Positions 6,795-23,640 of a DNA stretch of 23,935 bases are shown here, piece after piece. The first letter of the stretch is position 1, and the number at the start of each line of letters is the position of its first letter. Location of the stretch: positions 1-23,935 of the IMG/VR virus record IMGVR_UViG_2563366864_000005; one strand, 5' to 3'. The stretch comes from a virus (Duplodnaviria > Heunggongvirae > Uroviricota > Caudoviricetes). The position numbers and the translations under genes are program-made. Under the pieces are notes generated by a model that saw only the letters and a program-made list of their open reading frames with translations, had not been told where the DNA came from and searched no databases.

Positions 6795-7535
6795 ATGCCA
6801 ACACCAAATCCTCTGGCACCGGTGAAAGGGGCCGGAACCACCCTGTGGGTTTATAAGGGGAACGGTGACCCTTATGCGAACCCGCTTTCAGACGTTGACT
6901 GGTCGCGTCTGGCAAAAGTTAAAGACCTGACGCCCGGCGAACTGACCGCAGAGTCCTATGACGACAGTTATCTCGATGATGAAGATCCGGACTGGGCCGC
7001 GACCGGGCAGGGGCAGAAATCCGCCGGAGATACCAGCTTCACGCTGGCGTGGATGCCCGGAGAGCAGGGGCAGCAGGCGCTGCTGGCGTGGTTTAATGAA
7101 GGTGATACCCGTGCCTATAAAATCCGCTTCCCGAACGGCACGGTCGATGTGTTCCGTGGCTGGGTCAGCAGTATCGGTAAGGCGGTGACAGCGAAGGAAG
7201 TGATCACCCGTACGGTGAAGGTCACCAATGTGGGACGTCCGTCGATGGCAGAAGATCGCAGCACGGTAACAGCGGCAACCGGCATGACCGTGACGCCTGC
7301 CAGCACCTCGGTGGTTAAAGGGCAGAGCACGACGCTGACCGTGGCATTCCAGCCGGAAGGCGCAACCGACAAGAGCTTCCGTGCGGTGTCTGCGGATAAA
7401 ACAAAAGCCACCGTGTCGGTCAGTGGTATGACCATCACCGTGAAAGGTGTTGCTGCAGGCAAGGTCAACATTCCGGTCGTATCCGGTAATGGTGAGTTTG
7501 CTGCGGTTGCAGAAATCAACGTCACCGCCAGTTAA
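6795..7535 (+). CDS. V: Major tail tube protein V with C-terminal Ig-like domain
   Basis: ORF track starts 6765, but lambda-like N-terminus [22 protein letters not shown] begins at ATG 6795 (gagga Shine-Dalgarno); 246 aa as lambda gpV. Confidence 0.94.
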
Positions 7536-11990: not shown

Positions 11991-12734
11991 ATGACACAGA
12001 CAGAATCAGCGATTCTGGCGCACGCCCGGCGATGTGCGCCAGCGGAGTCGTGCGGCTTCGTGGTGAGAACGCCGGAGGGGGAAAGATATTTTCCCGGCGT
12101 GAATATTTCCGGTGAGCCGGAGGCGTATTTCCGTATGTCGCCGGAGGACTGGCTGCAGGCAGAAATGCAGGGTGAGATTGTGGCGCTGGTCCACAGCCAC
12201 CCCGGTGGTCTGCCCTGGCTGAGTGAGGCCGACCGGCGGCTGCAGGTGCAGAGTGATTTGCCGTGGTGGCTGGTCTGCCGGGGAGTGATTCATAAGTTCC
12301 GCTGTGTGCCGCATCTCACCGGGCGGCGCTTTGAGCACGGGGCGACGGACTGTTACACGCTGTTCCGGGATGCTTATCATCTGGCGGGGATTGAGATGCC
12401 GGATTTTCATCGCGGGGATGACTGGTGGCGTCACGGTCAGAATCTCTATCTGGATAATCTGGAGGCAACGGGGCTGTATCAGGTGCCGTTGTCATCGGCG
12501 CAGCCGGGCGATGTGCTGCTGTGCTGCTTTGGTTCATCGGTGCCGAATCATGCCGCTATTTACTGTGGTGATGGCGAGCTGCTGCACCATATTCCTGAAC
12601 AACTGAGCAAACGAGAGAGGTATACCGACAAATGGCAGCGACGCACACACTCCCTCTGGCGTCACCGGGCATGGCACGCATCTGCCTTTACGGGGATTTA
12701 CAACGATTTGGCCGCCGCATCGACCTTCGTGTGA
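11991..12734 (+). CDS. K: Tail tip assembly protein K with JAB/MPN metalloprotease-like and NlpC/P60-like regions (long form; lambda-annotated internal start would be 12135)
   Basis: Full ORF 247 aa from an ATG 6 nt after the L stop; JAMM-type motif HSHPGGLPWLSEAD at residues 68-81 with candidate upstream Glu19; Cys/His region GATDCYTLF...HHIPE; the lambda-style start MSPEDWLQ is ATG 12135; 3' end overlaps I by 103 nt. Confidence 0.88.
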   Translation: MTQTESAILAHARRCAPAESCGFVVRTPEGERYFPGVNISGEPEAYFRMSPEDWLQAEMQGEIVALVHSHPGGLPWLSEADRRLQVQSDLPWWLVCRGVIHKFRCVPHLTGRRFEHGATDCYTLFRDAYHLAGIEMPDFHRGDDWWRHGQNLYLDNLEATGLYQVPLSSAQPGDVLLCCFGSSVPNHAAIYCGDGELLHHIPEQLSKRERYTDKWQRRTHSLWRHRAWHASAFTGIYNDLAAASTFV

Positions 12735-13273
12735 AAACGGGGGCTGAAGCCATCCGGGCACTGGCCACACAGCTCCCGGCGTTTCGTCAGAAACTGAATG
12801 ACGGCTGGTATCAGGTGCGCATTGCCGGGCGTGATGCAGGAGAAAACGAATTATCTGCCCGTCTTAATGAGCCGCTGGCAAATGGTGCCGTGATCCACAT
12901 CGTACCGCGTCTGGCGGGTGCCAAAAGTGGCGGTATTTTTCAGGCAGTGCTGGGTGCGGCGCTAATTGCTACGGCAATCTGGATGCCGGGGCTTAGTATT
13001 GTTGCAAGTAATCTCATGTTCTCTCTTGGGGCAGGTATGGTTTTAGGCGGTGTTGCGCAGATGCTGGCACCGAAAGCCAAAACGCCTAAAGTGTCAGCCA
13101 CTGATAACGGTAAGCAAAATACCTATTTTTCCTCATTGGATAACATGGTTGCCCAGGGCAATGTCCTGCCTGTTCTGTACGGTGAAATGCGCGTGGGGTC
13201 ACGTGTGGCATCTCAGGAGATTAGCACGGCAGATGAAGGGGATGGTGGTCAGGTTGTGGTAATTGGGCGGTAA
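12632..13273 (+). CDS. I: Tail tip assembly protein I
   Basis: 213 aa, MAATHTLPLASPGMARICLYGDLQRFGRRIDLRVKTGAEAIRALATQLPAFRQKL...; lambda gpI homologue. Confidence 0.93.
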   Translation: MAATHTLPLASPGMARICLYGDLQRFGRRIDLRVKTGAEAIRALATQLPAFRQKLNDGWYQVRIAGRDAGENELSARLNEPLANGAVIHIVPRLAGAKSGGIFQAVLGAALIATAIWMPGLSIVASNLMFSLGAGMVLGGVAQMLAPKAKTPKVSATDNGKQNTYFSSLDNMVAQGNVLPVLYGEMRVGSRVASQEISTADEGDGGQVVVIGR

Positions 13274-13345
13274 TATTATTTACTCATGTTCTAACTGATT
13301 TAATATTTATATCGAACACTGATAATTATTCTGTTGGTTAGCTAT

Positions 13346-13684
13346 ATGAACAAAACGATTTTATTCTGCACGATTATTGCCTTAACAGGATGTAAATCTT
13401 TGGATTACGTAAAATCCGGCAAGCCTGTAATGGAAGGTAATTCATTAAAAAATATTGATGTATTGTCAGGCTGCATATCCAGACAATGGGCTGGTAATGG
13501 AACACCTATAACATCCATTCCTATTGAGAATGGGGTAAGCCTTTTAGTTCCACAGGCTATGGGTGGGTATGATGTTGTGCTTGATATCAAAAAAGCAGGA
13601 AATGGCAGTAGTTTTACTCTTTATGAACGCGTACCAGCATTAACGCCAAAAATTTTTGCTGATAGTGTTAATGCATGTAAATAA
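13346..13684 (+). CDS. Small lipoprotein of unknown function (moron between I and J)
   Basis: ORF track starts at TTG 13334; first ATG at 13346 gives MNKTILFCTIIALTGCKS..., i.e. a signal peptide with lipobox LTGC and Lys at +2; markedly AT-rich versus neighbours; absent from lambda, where I and J are about 60 bp apart. Confidence 0.7.
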   Translation: MNKTILFCTIIALTGCKSLDYVKSGKPVMEGNSLKNIDVLSGCISRQWAGNGTPITSIPIENGVSLLVPQAMGGYDVVLDIKKAGNGSSFTLYERVPALTPKIFADSVNACK

Positions 13685-13708
13685 TAGTTAATCCTGCCGT
13701 AACTCATG

Positions 13709-13737
13709 AGCCGCCTTTTGGGCGGCTTTGTTGTTTA
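13709..13737 (+). terminator. Intrinsic terminator after the lipoprotein moron
   Basis: agccgcc(13709-13715) / ttttg / ggcggct(13721-13727) followed by ttgttgttt. Confidence 0.6.
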
Positions 13738-13750
13738 TGGAGTGTGAGGA

Positions 13751-16700
13751 ATGGGTAAAGGCAGCAGTAAGGGGCATACCCCGCGCGAAGCGAAGGACAA
13801 CCTGAAATCCACGCAGTTGCTGAGTGTGATCGATGTCATCAGCGAAGGTCCGGTTGAAGGTCCGGTGGAGGGATTAAAAAGCGTGCTGCTGAACAGTACG
13901 CCGGTGCTGGACACTGAGGGGAATACCAACATATCCGGTGTCACGGTGGTGTTCCGTGCCGGTGAGCAGGAGCAGACACCGCCGGAGGGGTTTGAATCCT
14001 CCGGCTCCGAGACGGTGCTCGGTACGGAAGTGAAATACGACACGCCGATCACCCGGACCATCACGTCGGCAAACATTGACCGACTGCGTTTTACCTTCGG
14101 CGTGCAGGCACTGGTGGAAACCACCTCAAAGGGGGACAGGAATCCGTCGGAAGTCCGCCTGCTGGTTCAGATACAGCGTAACGGTGGCTGGGTGACGGAA
14201 AAAGACATCACCATTAAGGGCAAAACCACCTCGCAGTATCTGGCCTCGGTGGTGGTGGGTAACCTGCCGCCGCGCCCGTTTAATATCCGGATGCGCAGGA
14301 TGACGCCGGACAGCACCACAGACCAGCTGCTGAACAAAACGCTCTGGTCGTCATACACCGAAATCATCGATGTGAAACAGTGCTACCCGAACACGGCACT
14401 GGTCGGCGTGCAGGTGGACTCGGAACAGTTCGGCAGTCAGCAGGTGAGCCGTAATTATCATCTTCGCGGGCGCATTCTGCAGGTGCCGTCGAACTATAAC
14501 CCGCAGACGCGGCAATACAGCGGTATCTGGGACGGAACGTTAAAACCGGCATACAGCAACAACATGGCCTGGTGTCTGTGGGATATGCTGACCCATCCGC
14601 GCTACGGCATGGGGAAACGTCTTGGTGCGGCGGATGTGGATAAATGGGCGCTGTATGTCATCGGCCAGTACTGCGACCAGTCGGTGCCGGACGGCTTTGG
14701 CGGCACGGAGCCGCGCATTACCTGTAATGCGTACCTGACCACACAGCGCAAGGCGTGGGATGTGCTCAGTGATTTCTGCTCGGCGATGCGCTGTATGCCG
14801 GTATGGAACGGGCAGACGCTGACGTTCGTGCAGGACCGACCATCAGATAAGGTGTGGACCTATAACCGCAGTAATGTGGTGATGCCGGATGATGGCGCGC
14901 CGTTCCGCTACAGCTTCAGCGCCCTGAAGGACCGCCATAATGCCGTTGAGGTGAACTGGATTGACCCGGATAACGGCTGGGAGACGGCGACAGAGCTCGT
15001 GGAGGATACGCAGGCCATTGCCCGTTACGGCCGTAACGTCACGAAGATGGATGCCTTTGGCTGTACCAGCCGGGGGCAGGCACACCGCGCCGGGCTGTGG
15101 CTGATTAAAACGGAGCTGCTGGAAACGCAGACCGTGGACTTCAGCGTGGGTGCTGAAGGGCTTCGCCATGTACCGGGGGATGTCATTGAAATCTGCGATG
15201 ATGACTATGCCGGTATCAGCACCGGTGGTCGTGTGCTGGCGGTGAACAGCCAGACCCGGACGCTGACGCTCGACCGTGAAATCACGCTGCCATCCTCCGG
15301 TACCACGCTGATAAGCCTGGTTGACGGAAGTGGCAATCCGGTCAGCGTGGAGGTTCAGTCCGTCACCGACGGCGTGAAGGTGAAAGTGAGCCGTGTTCCT
15401 GACGGTGTTGCTGAATACAGCGTATGGGGGCTGAAGCTGCCGACGCTGCGCCAGCGACTGTTCCGCTGCGTGAGTATCCGTGAAAACGACGACGGCACGT
15501 ATGCCATCACCGCCGTGCAGCATGTGCCGGAAAAAGAGACCATCGTGGATAACGGGGCGCACTTTGACGGCGAACAGAGTGGCACGGTGAATGGTGTCAC
15601 GCCGCCCGCGGTGCAGCACCTGACCGCAGAAGTCACCGCAGACAGCGGGGAATATCAGGTGCTGGCGCGATGGGACACACCGAAGGTGGTGAAGGGGGTG
15701 AGCTTTATGCTTCGCCTGACCGTGGCAGCGGATGACGGCAGTGAGCGGCTGGTCAGCACGGCCAGGACGACGGAAACCACATACCGCTTCAGGCAACTGG
15801 CGCTGGGGAACTACAGGCTGACAGTCCGGGCGGTAAATGCGTGGGGGCAGCAGGGGGATCCGGCGTCGGTATCGTTCCGGATTGCCGCACCGGCAGCGCC
15901 ATCGCGGATTGAGCTGACGCCGGGCTATTTTCAGATAACCGCAACGCCGCATCTTGCCGTTTATGATCCGACGGTACAGTTTGAGTTCTGGTTCTCGGAA
16001 AAGCGGATTGCGGATATCAGGCAGGTTGAAGCCAGCGCGCGTTATCTTGGTACGGCGCTGTACTGGATAGCCGCCAGTATCAATATCAAACCGGGCCATG
16101 ATTATTATTTTTACATTCGCAGTGTGAACACCGTTGGCAAATCGGCATTTGTGGAGGCTGTTGGCCAGCCGAGTGATGATGCATCCGGCTATCTGGATTT
16201 TTTCAAAGGAGAGATAGGGAAAACCCATCTGGCTCAGGAGTTGTGGACGCAGATTGATAACGGTCAGCTTGCGCCTGACCTGGCTGAAATCAGGACGTCC
16301 ATTACGGATGTCAGCAATGAAATCACGCAGACCGTCAATAAGAAACTGGAAGACCAGAGTGCGGCGATCCAGCAGATACAGAAGGTTCAGGTTGATACAA
16401 ATAATAACCTGAACAGCATGTGGGCTGTGAAGCTGCAGCAGATGCAGGACGGACGCCTTTATATCGCGGGTATTGGTGCCGGTATTGAGAACACCCCTGA
16501 CGGCATGCAGAGTCAGGTGCTGCTGGCGGCGGACAGGATTGCGATGGTTAATCCTGCGAATGGCAACACAAAGCCGATGTTTGTTGGTCAGGGCGATCAG
16601 ATATTCATGAACGAAGTGTTCCTGAAATATCTGACGGCTCCCACCATTACCAGCGGCGGTAATCCTCCGGCATTTTCCCTGACACCGGACGGGCGGCTGA

Positions 16701-17230
16701 CGGCGAAAAATGCCGATATCAGCGGTAACGTGAATGCGAACTCCGGGACGCTCAACAACGTCACGATTAACGAGAACTGCCGGGTTCTGGGAAAACTGTC
16801 CGCGAACCAGATTGAAGGCGATCTCGTTAAAACAGTGGGCAAAGCTTTCCCCCGGGACTCCCGTGCACCGGAACGGTGGCCATCAGGGACCATTACCGTC
16901 AGGATTTATGACGATCAGCCGTTTGACCGGCAGATTGTTATTCCGGCGGTGGCATTCAGCGGCGCTAAACATGAGAGAGAGCATACTGATATTTACTCCT
17001 CATGCCGTCTGATAGTGCGGAAAAACGGTGCTGAAATTTATAACCGTACCGCGCTGGATAATACGCTGATTTACAGTGGCGTTATTGATATGCCTGCCGG
17101 TCACGGTCACATGACGCTGGAGTTTTCGGTGTCAGCATGGCTGGTAAATGACTGGTATCCCACAGCAAGTATCAGCGATTTGCTGGTTGTGGTGATGAAG
17201 AAAGCCACCGCAGGCATCAGTATCAGCTGA
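13751..17230 (+). CDS. J: Tail tip / central tail fiber host-specificity protein J
   Basis: 1159 aa, [37 protein letters not shown]...; lambda gpJ homologue (recalled as 1132 aa); fibronectin-III-like middle segment; ends ...[14 protein letters not shown]. Confidence 0.95.
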
Positions 17231-17297: not shown

Positions 17298-17897
17298 ATG
17301 CGTAAATTATGTGCTGTTATTCTGTCCGCAGTAGTCTGGCTGGTTGCCGCTGGTACGCCAGCGAGCGCAGCAGAGCATCAGTCCACACTAAGCGCCGGGT
17401 ATCTTCAGACCCATACTGATATGCCAGGCAGTGATGACCTGAAGGGCATTAACGTGAAATACCGTTATGAATTTACGGACACGCTGGGGCTGGTGACGTC
17501 ATTCAGTTATGCCAATGCCAAAGATGAGCAAAAAACGCATTACAGCGATACCCGCTGGCATGAAGATTCCGTGCGTAACCGCTGGTTCAGCATGATGGCG
17601 GGGCCATCTGTACGCGTGAATGAATGGTTCAGTGCTTATGCGATGGCGGGTATGGCTTACAGCCGTGTGTCGACCTTCTCCGGGGATTATCTCCGCGTAA
17701 CTGACAACGAGGGGAAAACGCACGATGCGCTGACCGGAAGTGATGACGGTCGCCACAGCAACACGTCTCTGGCGTGGGGAGCTGGCGTGCAGTTTAATCC
17801 GACCGAATCCGTGGCCATTGATATTGCTTATGAAGGCTCCGGCAGTGGCGACTGGCGCACTGACGGTTTCATCGTGGGTGTCGGTTATAAGTTCTGA
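17298..17897 (+). CDS. lom: Outer-membrane beta-barrel protein Lom (Ail/Lom/PagC family), lysogenic-conversion moron
   Basis: 199 aa, signal peptide MRKLCAVILSAVVWLVAAGTPASA; C-terminus ...AIDIAYEGSGSGDWRTDGFIVGVGYKF matches the C-terminus of lambda Lom as I recall it; same position after J. Confidence 0.9.
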   Translation: MRKLCAVILSAVVWLVAAGTPASAAEHQSTLSAGYLQTHTDMPGSDDLKGINVKYRYEFTDTLGLVTSFSYANAKDEQKTHYSDTRWHEDSVRNRWFSMMAGPSVRVNEWFSAYAMAGMAYSRVSTFSGDYLRVTDNEGKTHDALTGSDDGRHSNTSLAWGAGVQFNPTESVAIDIAYEGSGSGDWRTDGFIVGVGYKF

Positions 17898-21740: not shown

Positions 21741-23117
21741 CTATGATATTCCTGAAATATCCTCTTCAAGTTCTTTTACTGATTTCGCAATTTTAAATTT
21801 AAATTTCCTCTCTATTTCACTATTGCTAAGTTTTTTTTCCTTCTCTTTCCCTATCCACATAGAAACAAGTTCTCGTTTCTGAGATATATGTAGATTGTCA
21901 AAGTTAGGTATGTATTTAAAAGTCTCCGCTCTACCTCTGCGGAGTTCATAGAAAGTTTTAATCAAAGACTTTGGTTTTATTTCTGATAAAAGGCCGAATC
22001 GGCGGATAAGATTATTGATAGTATGATTAACAGAGCGAAGTTGAGCTGTTGAGGTTATTTGTGAGAAGTACGATACCCATCCCAATCGTTTACCTTCAAA
22101 CACACATCCCGTAATTCTGAGATTTAGTTTCCACTGACAATATGCAACAGCTCGTTCTTTATCGCGCTTACTTTTAGCTTGTAGTAGAGCGTGCCTATAT
22201 GCAGTAAAAATTTTTGCTAAGGATGACTCAAATCTAAGAATGCTCTCATGTTTTATCAATAATTCTCGATTTTCTATGTGGTATCCCAAAAAGTTAAAAC
22301 TTTCATCCAAGCTGCCTACTTTGGATTTTGAGTTCTCTTCATTTAATGGATGTGGGTTTAAATTTAATGATTGAAGCTTATCAATGATATGAGATGCTAT
22401 TTTTGTTGCTTGATATTTGGGCGTTAAAATAAGAATGTCATCAACGTATCGCATGTACCATATGCCATGCATTTTATTGATTTCATCATCGAAATTAGAT
22501 AGTGATATTTCAGCTAAAATGTTTGATATCGCTAATCCCTGAGGTACTCCTCTGGTATTATTAGGGATACCTTTGCTTCCTGTACTTCCACTTACAGTAG
22601 GTACGATTAATGATGATGTTATTAACTGTCTAATTTCTTTTTTTCTAATCTTATTTTTTATTGCATTAAATATCAATTTATGTTCAATTGAAGGATAGAA
22701 ACTTTTAAGATCTATTTTTGCATATTCAGCATATAGACTGCAGTTTAATGCTTCTTTCAATGAGTCAATTACTGTATGTGGTAGTTTTAATCTGGAATTA
22801 GGATATATTTCCGTAAGGCATTCACAGAGAGCCCTAAGAGTAATTCTGTCCCTAGCAGTTGGTATGGAAATCTGTCTGGGGGTAGAGTTAGCCCCTTTAG
22901 ATATTAATTTTTCTTTATATGCTGTAAATTTATAATTACCAGAATTAACCTTTTCAAAAATGAAAGTGATCTCATTGTTTATTGTTAAATCAAGTTTTGA
23001 TGGGCGAATCCGATCTATGCCAATCGCTCCTGATTCTTTGATTTTTTCAGTGTATACTTTTAGAAGGTTTTTTTTCGAGAATGACTTTTTAAAAATTCTA
23101 CTTGCAGTCATAGTCAA
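21741..23117 (-). CDS. Reverse transcriptase (458 aa), stand-alone RT domain of prokaryotic defence-associated type (retron-like or UG/Abi-like; class unresolved)
   Basis: RT motifs in order: PRQISIPTARDRITLRAL (motif 1), YAEYAKIDLKSFYPSI (motif 2, Asp136), GVPQGLAISNILAEI (motif B), YMRYVDDILIL (motif C, YVDD at + coords 22437-22448), FLGYHI (motif 7), then RITG in the thumb region; about 30% GC; start overlaps the upstream membrane-protein gene by 20 nt. Confidence 0.85.
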   Translation of the reverse strand: MTMTASRIFKKSFSKKNLLKVYTEKIKESGAIGIDRIRPSKLDLTINNEITFIFEKVNSGNYKFTAYKEKLISKGANSTPRQISIPTARDRITLRALCECLTEIYPNSRLKLPHTVIDSLKEALNCSLYAEYAKIDLKSFYPSIEHKLIFNAIKNKIRKKEIRQLITSSLIVPTVSGSTGSKGIPNNTRGVPQGLAISNILAEISLSNFDDEINKMHGIWYMRYVDDILILTPKYQATKIASHIIDKLQSLNLNPHPLNEENSKSKVGSLDESFNFLGYHIENRELLIKHESILRFESSLAKIFTAYRHALLQAKSKRDKERAVAYCQWKLNLRITGCVFEGKRLGWVSYFSQITSTAQLRSVNHTINNLIRRFGLLSEIKPKSLIKTFYELRRGRAETFKYIPNFDNLHISQKRELVSMWIGKEKEKKLSNSEIERKFKFKIAKSVKELEEDISGIS

Positions 23118-23640
23118 TCCAAAGATATATTAATGGTAGTATATAAAGTGCGGCAGTAATAAATATTCGAAGTAATATCCATAAATTAACAATTATTTTT
23201 TCTTTTTGTGTGGGGAGCCTCGTCGTAAGTCCAACTTGAGTTACCCTTGAAACTTTATCATCTATCTCACGATGATTCTCAACCTCATTGAGCAAATTAA
23301 AATATTTTTCTTTCTGTTCAGGAGTTAATTGTTGGCCGTTGGTAATGTCAAAATAGAGTCGCTGTAGTGCAATATAATTCCTTCTCATGGCTATTGCTCG
23401 ACCACGAAAATCTAGGTTAGATACGATCAGAGAAATACCTAGTAGAGCCACTGAAAGTATCGCTGCAACGATATCTGTATTATCTCCTAGAACTTTTGGA
23501 AATCGTAACGTTACAATTGAAAGCACCGCACTCAATATAGCATACCAAACGAGGATAAATTGAGAGTGTTTTTCAAGCCATTCTAGTCGATGGTGCGCTT
23601 GGATACGGGCTTTATATGTAAACCAAATATTGTCATGCAT
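23098..23640 (-). CDS. Small membrane protein (180 aa), N-terminal amphipathic helix plus two transmembrane helices and a C-terminal transmembrane helix; SLATT-like candidate effector partner of the RT
   Basis: MHDNIWFTYKARIQAHHRLEWLEKHSQ then hydrophobic FILVWYAILSAVLSIVTL and IVAAILSVALLGISLIVSNL, basic loop RGRAIAMRRNY, C-terminal IIVNLWILLRIFITAALYILPLIYLWI; AGGA ribosome-binding site upstream of the ATG at 23640; 3' end overlaps the RT start. Confidence 0.65.
   Translation of the reverse strand: MHDNIWFTYKARIQAHHRLEWLEKHSQFILVWYAILSAVLSIVTLRFPKVLGDNTDIVAAILSVALLGISLIVSNLDFRGRAIAMRRNYIALQRLYFDITNGQQLTPEQKEKYFNLLNEVENHREIDDKVSRVTQVGLTTRLPTQKEKIIVNLWILLRIFITAALYILPLIYLWIDYDCK

What the first reader, a model, noticed from the sequence alone, without database searches (positions are those of the whole stretch)
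13274..13750. AT-rich lipoprotein moron with its own terminator inserted between tail genes I and J
In lambda, I and J are nearly adjacent; here there is a 477-bp insert of clearly lower GC encoding a roughly 112-aa protein with a lipoprotein signal peptide (MNKTILFCTIIALTGC, Lys at +2 suggesting outer-membrane sorting), followed by an intrinsic terminator at 13709-13737. Phage morons of this kind are usually expressed from the prophage and alter host surface properties, for example superinfection exclusion by receptor blocking or serum resistance. Its position inside the late tail operon, immediately before the host-specificity gene J, makes a surface or receptor-related role an attractive inference.
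Basis: partly seen in the sequence, partly recalled or inferred. Interest (0 to 1): 0.55.

Follow-up and report, generated by a model that had tools for sequence, protein, structure and literature searches.

The report
Accessory lipoprotein gene in tail operon
A lambda-like E. coli prophage carries an extra, AT-rich gene for a small outer-membrane lipoprotein between tail genes I and J; it belongs to an already catalogued but untested phage family (phiKO2 gp19 / PHROG 914) that recurs in the tail-tip gene clusters of many phages and may block entry of other phages.

Summary
CDS 13346..13684 (+) encodes a 112-aa protein with a lipoprotein signal peptide (LTGC, Cys16, Lys at +2). Its GC is 0.37 against 0.56-0.59 in the flanks, and it sits between I and J.

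One correction: the hairpin at 13708-13737 is not private to the insert. Lambda and most E. coli prophages without the gene have the homologous hairpin between I and J. The real indel is about 13274-13706.

The gene is accessory. It occupies about 349 of roughly 8,700 E. coli I-J junctions and 337 of 5,426 complete genomes. It is under purifying selection.

It has no Pfam domain and is not Cor, Llp, Bor or mEp010 Lpp010. It is a full-length member of PHROG 914 (function unknown) and a homologue of phiKO2 Gp19, annotated in that record as a putative moron.

Relatives down to about 25% identity lie in tail-tip modules of very divergent siphophages. Most lie between K and I, two overlap K's stop codon, and nearly all are followed by a hairpin plus T-run.

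No consensus promoter lies in the 72-nt upstream spacer. The same allele accompanies J proteins with very different receptor-binding ends.

Best guess, untested: an outer-membrane lipoprotein that interferes with phage entry. This is a new member of a known kind, of modest interest.

The parts
12632..13273 (+). Tail assembly gene I (longest ORF 213 aa; the RefSeq start in the homologous prophage corresponds to 12671). Left boundary of the insert; ends ...VVVIGR*, as lambda I ends ...VIGR*.
13274..13345 (+). AT-rich 72-nt spacer upstream of the lipoprotein gene. No sigma-70 consensus match at the scan threshold of 9 of 12; by eye only 8-of-12 candidates (TTTACT-16-TAATAT; TTTAAT-16-GATAAT). Weak Shine-Dalgarno sequence.
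   Evidence: 3 variable sites of 72 among 19 haplotypes
13346..13684 (+). Lipoprotein CDS, 112 aa, PHROG 914 / phiKO2 Gp19 family. The mature protein is about 97 aa with two family-invariant cysteines (C43, C111).
13346..13393 (+). Signal peptide plus lipobox L-T-G-C. The Cys16 codon is 13391-13393 and the +2 residue is Lys.
   Evidence: lipobox Cys invariant in 31 family members; none has Asp at +2
13685..13707 (+). Short spacer; right end of the sequence that is extra relative to lambda.
13708..13738 (+). G+C hairpin (GAGCCGCC-TTTT-GGGCGGCTT) with an interrupted T-run. It looks like an intrinsic terminator and is homologous to the hairpin in the lambda I-J intergenic region.
13751..17230 (+). 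Host-specificity / tip attachment gene J (1159 aa). The N-terminal ~800 aa are about 97-99% identical to lambda J; the C-terminal ~150 aa are only 41% identical and are of the VT1-Sakai / PhiR55_1 type.

Best explanation
What it is: a mobile accessory gene of the phiKO2-gp19 / PHROG 914 family, inserted between the stop codon of I and the hairpin that already stood at the I-J junction. It encodes a small lipoprotein (mature protein about 97 aa). The protein is exported by Sec, lipidated at Cys16 and sorted by Lol to the outer membrane. It folds in the periplasm into a two-layer alpha/beta domain, probably pinned by a C43-C111 disulfide.

When it is made: it lies in the Q-antiterminated late operon, so it must be transcribed with the tail genes during lytic growth (inferred from position). 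Whether a weak promoter in or upstream of the AT-rich spacer also expresses it in the lysogen is unknown.

What it most likely does (inferred, not shown): it binds the periplasmic face of an outer-membrane component and so interferes with adsorption or DNA entry of incoming phages. That would give superinfection exclusion in the lysogen, and/or would protect progeny virions from being wasted on envelope debris at lysis. T5 Llp, the Cor proteins and mEp010 Lpp010 work this way. The gene is not tied to one J receptor-binding domain, so its target is more likely a component or step common to many J-type tails, or a receptor of other phages, than the phage's own specific receptor.
For: - Lipoprotein signal with an invariant lipobox Cys, two further invariant Cys and no Asp at +2 in 31 diverse members.
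- Confident AF2 model: pLDDT 84, and 90-97 over most of the mature domain.
- Purifying selection: 10 codons with synonymous-only variation against 6 with non-synonymous variation among 19 haplotypes.
- A family of 117 clusters at 50% identity, nearly all 105-125 aa.
- Accessory status: 349 places in 337 of 5,426 E. coli genomes, against about 8,699 I-J junction places.
- Recurrent position in tail-tip modules whose proteins are only 30-40% identical. K|gene|I in phiKO2, Fraca, L070, L071, L072, L077, L082, L083 and L093, and immediately upstream of I in L062 and L084; just before the tape measure gene in L063-L068.
- A hairpin plus T-run follows nearly every phage copy examined.
- Precedents for lipoproteins encoded beside the host-range gene that block entry: Llp is periplasmic, disulfide-bonded and lies adjacent to pb5 (bioRxiv 10.1101/2022.06.28.497910); Lpp010, encoded just downstream of J in mEp010, excludes LamB-dependent phages including lambda (PMC11893012).
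Against: - There is no experimental datum for any member of the family.
- There is no homology to Cor, Llp, Lpp010 or Bor beyond the signal peptide.
- The allele is not linked to the J receptor-binding domain.
- Family members also sit in ordinary chromosomal contexts (Shimwellia CP001560 next to ecotin; L090 next to uvrB), so the domain is not intrinsically anti-phage.
- There is no PADLOC hit.
- No promoter was detected.
Confidence: 0.4

Rival explanations
1. A lysogenic-conversion lipoprotein that benefits the host for reasons unrelated to phages (serum or complement resistance, adhesion, envelope stress, virulence), as lambda Bor/Iss does and as is claimed for the fold-neighbour Flpp3 of Francisella.
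Against: No Pfam Bor or DUF3568 match. The family is found in phages of soil and environmental bacteria, where serum resistance is irrelevant. Its persistent position inside the tail-tip cluster, in two cases overlapping K's stop codon, fits late lytic expression better than prophage expression. No promoter was detected.
Confidence: 0.22
2. A helper for the phage's own lytic cycle, tied functionally to K or I. Examples would be a periplasmic immunity or modulator protein for the NlpC/P60 peptidase domain of K, or an envelope-remodelling factor that aids release.
For: The gene lies directly downstream of K (JAB + NlpC/P60) in at least 9 divergent lineages and overlaps K's stop codon in L082 and L093, the layout typical of effector-immunity pairs. 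It is necessarily expressed with the late genes.
Against: Most lambda-like tails, including lambda itself and about 96% of E. coli I-J/K-I modules, lack it and function. In this window it is separated from K by I, and in L063-L068 and L081 it lies elsewhere. K is assembled in the cytoplasm and, from my own recollection of the lambda literature, is not known to reach the periplasm of the producing cell.
Confidence: 0.1
3. A passenger with no current function in E. coli: a hitch-hiking remnant kept only by linkage to one I allele.
For: The insert is associated with one I-3'/J-5' allele class: about 385 genomes have flanks at >=95% identity, against 337 with the gene. Frameshifted copies exist (L059-L061, P0002, P0013). 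No isolated phage in the 50,697-record collection carries this allele.
Against: Most copies have an intact ORF, with more synonymous than non-synonymous variation. The Cys and lipobox pattern is conserved across 117 clusters and many genera.
Confidence: 0.08

Closest known systems
Klebsiella phage phiKO2 Gp19 (YP_006599.1), with Escherichia phages Fraca and LMessi and Serratia phage OS31; PHROG 914
   Same: True homologues. The window protein matches the PHROG 914 profile over its full length (E 1.3e-32) and Fraca's protein at 31% identity; Fraca's protein is 48.6% identical to Gp19. All share a length of about 112 aa, the lipobox, two invariant Cys, low GC relative to the flanks, a following hairpin terminator and a position inside the tail-tip cluster. 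The phiKO2 GenBank record already calls Gp19 a 'putative moron gene product'.
   Different: Those copies lie between K and I; here the gene lies between I and J. The E. coli allele is only about 30% identical to them. No member has been tested.
T5 Llp and the Cor family (phi80, N15, HK022, T1): FhuA-blocking superinfection-exclusion lipoproteins
   Same: Small phage lipoproteins that are outer-membrane anchored and periplasm-facing, have an intramolecular disulfide, and are encoded next to the receptor-binding or tail-tip genes.
   Different: No homology. Only the signal peptide aligns (PHROG 1119 Cor E 0.53; PDB 8a60_B Llp E 0.49; hhalign against Fraca Cor covers residues 1-32 only). The mature protein is about 97 aa against about 60. 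Neither appears among the fold matches listed. Cor is reported to accompany FhuA-using phages (from my own recollection), whereas this gene is not linked to one J C-terminus.
mEp010 Lpp010 and mEp021 Lpp021 (mEpimmI phages), PMC11893012
   Same: Lipoproteins encoded in the structural-gene cluster (Lpp010 lies just downstream of J). When expressed from a plasmid they exclude phages that use LamB (including lambda) or OmpA respectively.
   Different: Lpp010 is 82 aa and is unrelated beyond the signal peptide. It is on the opposite strand, downstream of J.
Lambda Bor / Iss (serum-resistance lipoprotein) and HK97 gp15 (tail-operon moron, inner-membrane exclusion protein)
   Same: Prophage accessory envelope proteins; gp15 is a moron inside the tail operon. 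The L063-L068 homologues sit immediately upstream of the tape measure gene, which from my own recollection is the slot HK97 gp15 occupies.
   Different: No Pfam Bor hit. From my own recollection, gp15 is an inner-membrane protein, not a lipoprotein.
Francisella Flpp3 (DUF3568), DUF302, BamC N-terminal domain
   Different: 5-12% identity and no Pfam match. The fold is common, so homology is not established.

Membership tests
PHROG 914 / phiKO2 Gp19 lipoprotein family | Full-length sequence match to the family profile | tested here: met
   PHROG 914 E 1.3e-32, residues 1-112 on profile positions 1-118 of 118. Profile search finds 117 clusters with E<=1e-3. Linked to phiKO2 Gp19 through Fraca.
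PHROG 914 / phiKO2 Gp19 lipoprotein family | Lipobox Cys plus two further conserved Cys; length about 105-125 aa | tested here: met
   C16, C43 and C111 are invariant in the 31-sequence alignment A3.
Bacterial outer-membrane lipoprotein | Signal peptide with lipobox [LVI][ASTVI][GAS]C | tested here: met
   MNKTILFCTIIA-LTGC.
Bacterial outer-membrane lipoprotein | No Lol-avoidance residue (Asp) at +2 | tested here: met
   Lys at +2; no Asp at +2 in the 31 members. The rule itself is established knowledge for E. coli.
Bacterial outer-membrane lipoprotein | Actual lipidation and outer-membrane location | not testable with these tools
   Needs globomycin or palmitate labelling and membrane fractionation.
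Moron (Juhala / Hendrix sense) | Extra gene between genes that are adjacent in related phages | tested here: met
   Lambda and 100+ related phages align on both sides but lack the insert. Empty-site alignment. 349 occupied places against about 8,699 junction places.
Moron (Juhala / Hendrix sense) | Nucleotide composition different from the surroundings | tested here: met
   GC 0.37 against 0.56 and 0.59; also lower than both flanks in the 10 other enterobacterial-type phage loci examined (3-16 points below the nearer flank).
Moron (Juhala / Hendrix sense) | Own promoter | tested here: inconclusive
   No + strand sigma-70 consensus site in 12500-14500; only 8-of-12 candidates by eye. Homologues lie 36-40 nt after K or overlap its stop codon.
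Moron (Juhala / Hendrix sense) | Own terminator | tested here: inconclusive
   A good hairpin follows the gene, and one follows nearly every homologue. Here, however, it is homologous to the hairpin at empty I-J sites.
Moron (Juhala / Hendrix sense) | Expressed from the repressed prophage | not testable with these tools
   Needs RNA-seq or 5'-RACE of a lysogen.
Cor superinfection-exclusion family | Sequence match to the Cor profile over the mature protein | tested here: not met
   PHROG 1119 E 0.53, residues 1-30 only; hhalign against Fraca Cor aligns only the signal-peptide region.
T5 Llp | Sequence or fold match to Llp (PDB 8a60 chain B) | tested here: not met
Bor / Iss | Pfam Bor-family match | tested here: not met
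   No Pfam family at E<=1.
DUF3568 (Flpp3) | Pfam profile match | tested here: not met
Known anti-phage defence proteins (PADLOC) | Match to any PADLOC model | tested here: not met
   0 families.

The most novel reading that the evidence does not exclude
The family is not a casual moron but a long-standing accessory partner of lambda-type tail-tip modules. It would have been inherited with K-I-J for long enough that homologues at about 25% identity still sit between K and I and are translationally coupled to K. On this reading it acts on a step common to all J-type tails, independent of the receptor-binding domain, for example by blocking the periplasmic or outer-membrane penetration stage of incoming siphophage tails, or by neutralising envelope debris for the progeny. 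That would be a new, receptor-independent class of lipoprotein exclusion.
Probability: 0.15. Interest if true: 0.7.

Novelty: new member of a known kind. Interest (0 to 1): 0.35.

Why it matters
About 6% of complete E. coli genomes carry this gene, and related genes occur in phages of Klebsiella, Enterobacter, Kluyvera and Serratia and in soil metagenomes, yet no member has a known function. If it excludes phages, it would add a fourth, structurally distinct lipoprotein family to Llp, Cor and Lpp010. It could also explain some resistance of lysogens to siphophages, which bears on phage therapy and host-range prediction. Its consistent placement beside K, I and J makes it a cheap, well-defined candidate: one small gene to clone and one phage panel to spot. 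As it stands, it is an ordinary accessory gene of an already catalogued family.

Tried and rejected
- Pfam, NCBIfam and PADLOC scans of the protein, and a Pfam scan of all 31 family members, found nothing beyond signal-peptide-level noise.
- Profile search of PDB sequences gave only signal-peptide matches.
- The hypothesis 'blocks the phage's own receptor' was tested by J C-terminus linkage and is not supported.
- The hypothesis 'structural component' is rejected: the protein carries an export and lipidation signal and is absent from most related tails.
- The hypothesis 'terminator came in with the insert' is rejected for this locus.
- Rfam found no RNA family anywhere in the window.
- Minus-strand ORFs of 43 and 61 aa inside the region have no support.
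- The search for related loci with the divergent alignments failed because no conserved 7-mer was available, and two single-protein scans found nothing.
- Five literature searches found no paper on this family; they returned only analogues.
- A possible relic of the gene's 3' end in lambda's 21-nt spacer was considered, but the spacer is too short to test.

Full report
**The observation**

The window is the late (head and tail) region of a lambda-like E. coli prophage. The whole 23.9 kb is 99.5% identical to prophages in complete E. coli genomes. In strains CB9615 and SBF22 the homologous prophage lies beside prfC.

Between I (12632..13273) and J (13751..17230) there is one sensible ORF. It starts at ATG 13346, stops at 13684 and encodes 112 aa beginning MNKTILFCTIIALTGC. 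RefSeq annotates the same 339-nt gene as 'hypothetical protein'.

GC drops to 0.33-0.40 across the segment, against 0.55-0.64 around it. The CDS is 0.37 against 0.56 and 0.59 for the 2-kb flanks.

A 9-bp hairpin with 6 G-C pairs at 13708-13728 is followed by an interrupted T-run. It folds at -16.7 kcal/mol, better than all 200 shuffles.

**Correction on the boundaries**

Lambda's own 60-nt I-J spacer contains a homologous hairpin. It reads CCGCC-loop-GGCGG, then TTTTGTCATTTATGGAGCGTGAGGAATGGG, and aligns base for base with window 13712-13755.

I built an artificial 'empty site' query: the I 3' end joined directly to the hairpin and the J 5' end. It aligns in a single piece to typical E. coli prophages, and the example I fetched has exactly the lambda arrangement.

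So the hairpin is a feature of the I-J junction with or without the gene. The extra DNA is about 13274-13706, roughly 433 bp replacing 21 nt. 'Its own terminator' is therefore not established at this locus.

**How common it is**

- The 477-bp segment occurs in 337 of 5,426 complete E. coli genomes (349 places, up to 3 per genome, one on a plasmid) at 95-100% identity.
- The empty-site query finds about 8,699 I-J junction places in 4,292 genomes, so about 4% of junctions are occupied.
- None of 50,697 deposited phage genomes carries this allele. More than 100 lambda-like phages align on both flanks but not across the insert. tblastn finds only a 31%-identical relative in phage Fraca.
- IMG/VR holds 58 near-identical copies (at least 97% protein identity) in E. 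coli prophage contigs, plus three frameshifted copies and one partial copy.
- Among 19 haplotypes of the gapless copies, 10 codons vary synonymously only and 6 vary non-synonymously. Given about three times more non-synonymous sites, this indicates purifying selection.
- A few copies are frameshifted.

**The protein**

- Pfam, NCBIfam and PADLOC give nothing.
- PHROGs gives a full-length match to PHROG 914, function unknown (E 1.3e-32). There is only a signal-peptide-level touch to Cor (E 0.53).
- A profile search of 1.84 billion representatives finds 117 clusters, almost all 105-125 aa.
- In a 31-sequence alignment the lipobox Cys and two further Cys (C43, C111) are invariant. P27, K35, W48 and G63 are nearly so, and no member has Asp at +2. 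By the established E. coli Lol rule this predicts an outer-membrane lipoprotein; the two Cys suggest a periplasmic disulfide.
- The AF2 model is confident (pLDDT 84; 90-97 over most of the mature domain). It is a helix / strand / helix / four strands / helix sandwich, with C43 in the long helix and C111 in the C-terminal helix.
- Llp, Cor, Lpp010 and Bor are not relatives; only the signal peptides align.

**Relatives and their positions**

This was the most informative result.

- Fraca's protein leads to Klebsiella phage phiKO2 Gp19 (48.6% identity), LMessi and Serratia phage OS31.
- The phiKO2 record annotates Gp19 as 'putative moron gene product', lying between the K-like and I-like genes with a putative terminator after it. 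It annotates another putative terminator between I and J.
- I compared the window's and phiKO2's tail proteins with the fetched loci. The lipoprotein gene lies between K and I in Fraca, phiKO2, L070, L071, L072 (Kluyvera), L077, L082 (forest soil), L083 and L093.
- It lies immediately upstream of I, after other inserted genes, in L062 and L084.
- It lies just upstream of the tape measure gene in L063-L068.
- It lies at the prophage end beside an integrase in L081.
- It lies between I and J only in the E. coli lineage.
- The tail proteins of these phages are only 30-40% identical to the window's, and the lipoproteins are 26-57% identical.
- In L082 and L093 the start codon overlaps K's stop codon. 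In L070, L072 and phiKO2 the gap is 36-40 nt with a strong ribosome-binding site.
- Nearly every phage copy examined is followed within about 20-50 nt by a G+C hairpin and a T-run. In the enterobacterial-type phage loci the gene's GC is below both flanks (3-16 points below the nearer flank, up to 22 below the other).
- Two members sit in ordinary chromosomal contexts: Shimwellia CP001560 between yidB-like and ecotin genes, and L090 near uvrB.

'Accessory, horizontally mobile, not structural' is well supported. 'Autonomous transcription unit' is not:
- the consensus scan finds no + strand promoter in 12500-14500;
- the hairpin is shared with empty sites;
- the family's usual tight packing behind K points to co-transcription with the late tail genes.

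In lambda-type phages, late transcription is Q-antiterminated and reads through such hairpins (established knowledge).

'Next to J, hence receptor-related' is weakened. The same allele (97-99% identical) precedes at least four or five J types whose last 150 residues are 19-62% identical to the window's, and none is lambda-like (at most 43% identical). Conversely, phages with a J C-terminus identical (PhiR55_1) or 97.6% identical (VT1-Sakai, PPompW) to the window's lack the gene.

The insert is instead linked to one I-3'/J-5' allele class. About 385 genomes have flanks at 95% identity or more, against 337 with the gene. This fits a single acquisition followed by recombination within J.

**Mechanism**

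Shown from sequence: an exported, lipidatable, Cys-constrained small domain under purifying selection.

Inferred: outer-membrane location, a disulfide, and expression with the late operon.

Hypothesised: interference with phage entry. The argument is by analogy and location. Every characterised small phage lipoprotein encoded beside the host-range genes of E. coli siphophages blocks entry at the outer membrane:
- T5 Llp (periplasmic, disulfide-bonded, binds the FhuA plug; bioRxiv 10.1101/2022.06.28.497910);
- the Cor proteins;
- mEp010 Lpp010 and mEp021 Lpp021 (exclusion of LamB- and OmpA-dependent phages; PMC11893012).

Late expression would also suit protection of progeny from receptor-bearing debris, a benefit proposed for prophage exclusion proteins (bioRxiv 10.1101/2024.03.05.583538, abstract).

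Because the gene is independent of the J receptor-binding domain, a target common to many J-type tails, or a receptor used by other phages, is more likely than the phage's own receptor. I put this at about 0.4. The rivals are:
- host-benefit conversion (about 0.22);
- a K/I-linked lytic helper or immunity function (about 0.1);
- a passenger without function (about 0.08).

**Novelty and verdict**

The family was already flagged as a putative moron in the phiKO2 record and is catalogued as PHROG 914. Lipoprotein morons in tail operons are a familiar theme, and this is a new slot (I|J) for a known, uncharacterised family: a new member of a known kind.

A specialist would not be surprised by its presence. 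The mildly unexpected points are how faithfully the family stays within the K-I-J cluster across very divergent phages, and that it is uncoupled from the receptor-binding domain. Interest is 0.35.

Noticed in passing
window 21741..23117 (-) and 23098..23640 (-): A defence-associated reverse transcriptase (PADLOC RT_UG17, E 1.4e-158) with an adjacent RT-associated SLATT protein (E 4.6e-57). This looks like a DRT-type anti-phage system carried at the right end of the prophage, downstream of the tail-fibre genes.
   Followed up: partly
L073 (lambda J02459) 15445-15504; L076 (phiKO2) 7007-7029: Lambda has a strong hairpin plus T-run (-16.5 kcal/mol) in its I-J spacer, and the phiKO2 record annotates a putative terminator at the same junction. 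Terminator-like hairpins between tail genes are therefore a backbone feature, whose role inside an antiterminated operon I did not explore.
   Followed up: partly
window 16150..17230 (J C-terminal third): J is 97-99% identical to lambda J for about 800 residues, then mosaic (36%, 75%, 49% and 21% identity per 100-residue block). The C-terminal 249 aa are of the VT1-Sakai / PPompW / PhiR55_1 type, so the receptor is probably not LamB. Prophages carrying the lipoprotein gene have at least 4-5 different J C-termini.
   Followed up: partly
L002 (phage Fraca) 5725-5994: A second small ORF (89 aa, no lipobox) sits between K and the lipoprotein homologue. In L062 and L084 about 4-4.5 kb of other genes are inserted at the same K-I slot, so this junction seems to be a hotspot for accessory cargo.
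   Followed up: no
L059, L060, L061; proteins P0002, P0007, P0013: Frameshifted or truncated copies of the lipoprotein gene occur in some E. coli prophages, so the gene is occasionally lost by decay.
   Followed up: no
L078-L080 (Shimwellia blattae CP001560 and relatives), L090: Family members at normal chromosomal GC lie in non-prophage contexts: in L078-L080 between a YidB-like gene and ecotin with copCD nearby, and in L090 near uvrB and a GspH gene. This suggests a cellular origin or a cellular role for the domain.
   Followed up: no
window 17298..17897 (+): A 199-aa Lom/Ail-family outer-membrane protein gene lies directly after J, as in lambda. It is a second envelope-directed accessory gene in the same tail region.
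   Followed up: no
phages collection as a whole: The E. coli allele is present in 6% of complete E. coli genomes but in none of 50,697 deposited phage genomes, including many induced lambdoid and Stx phages. This could be sampling, or the prophage lineage carrying it may seldom be recovered as plaque-forming phage.
   Followed up: no
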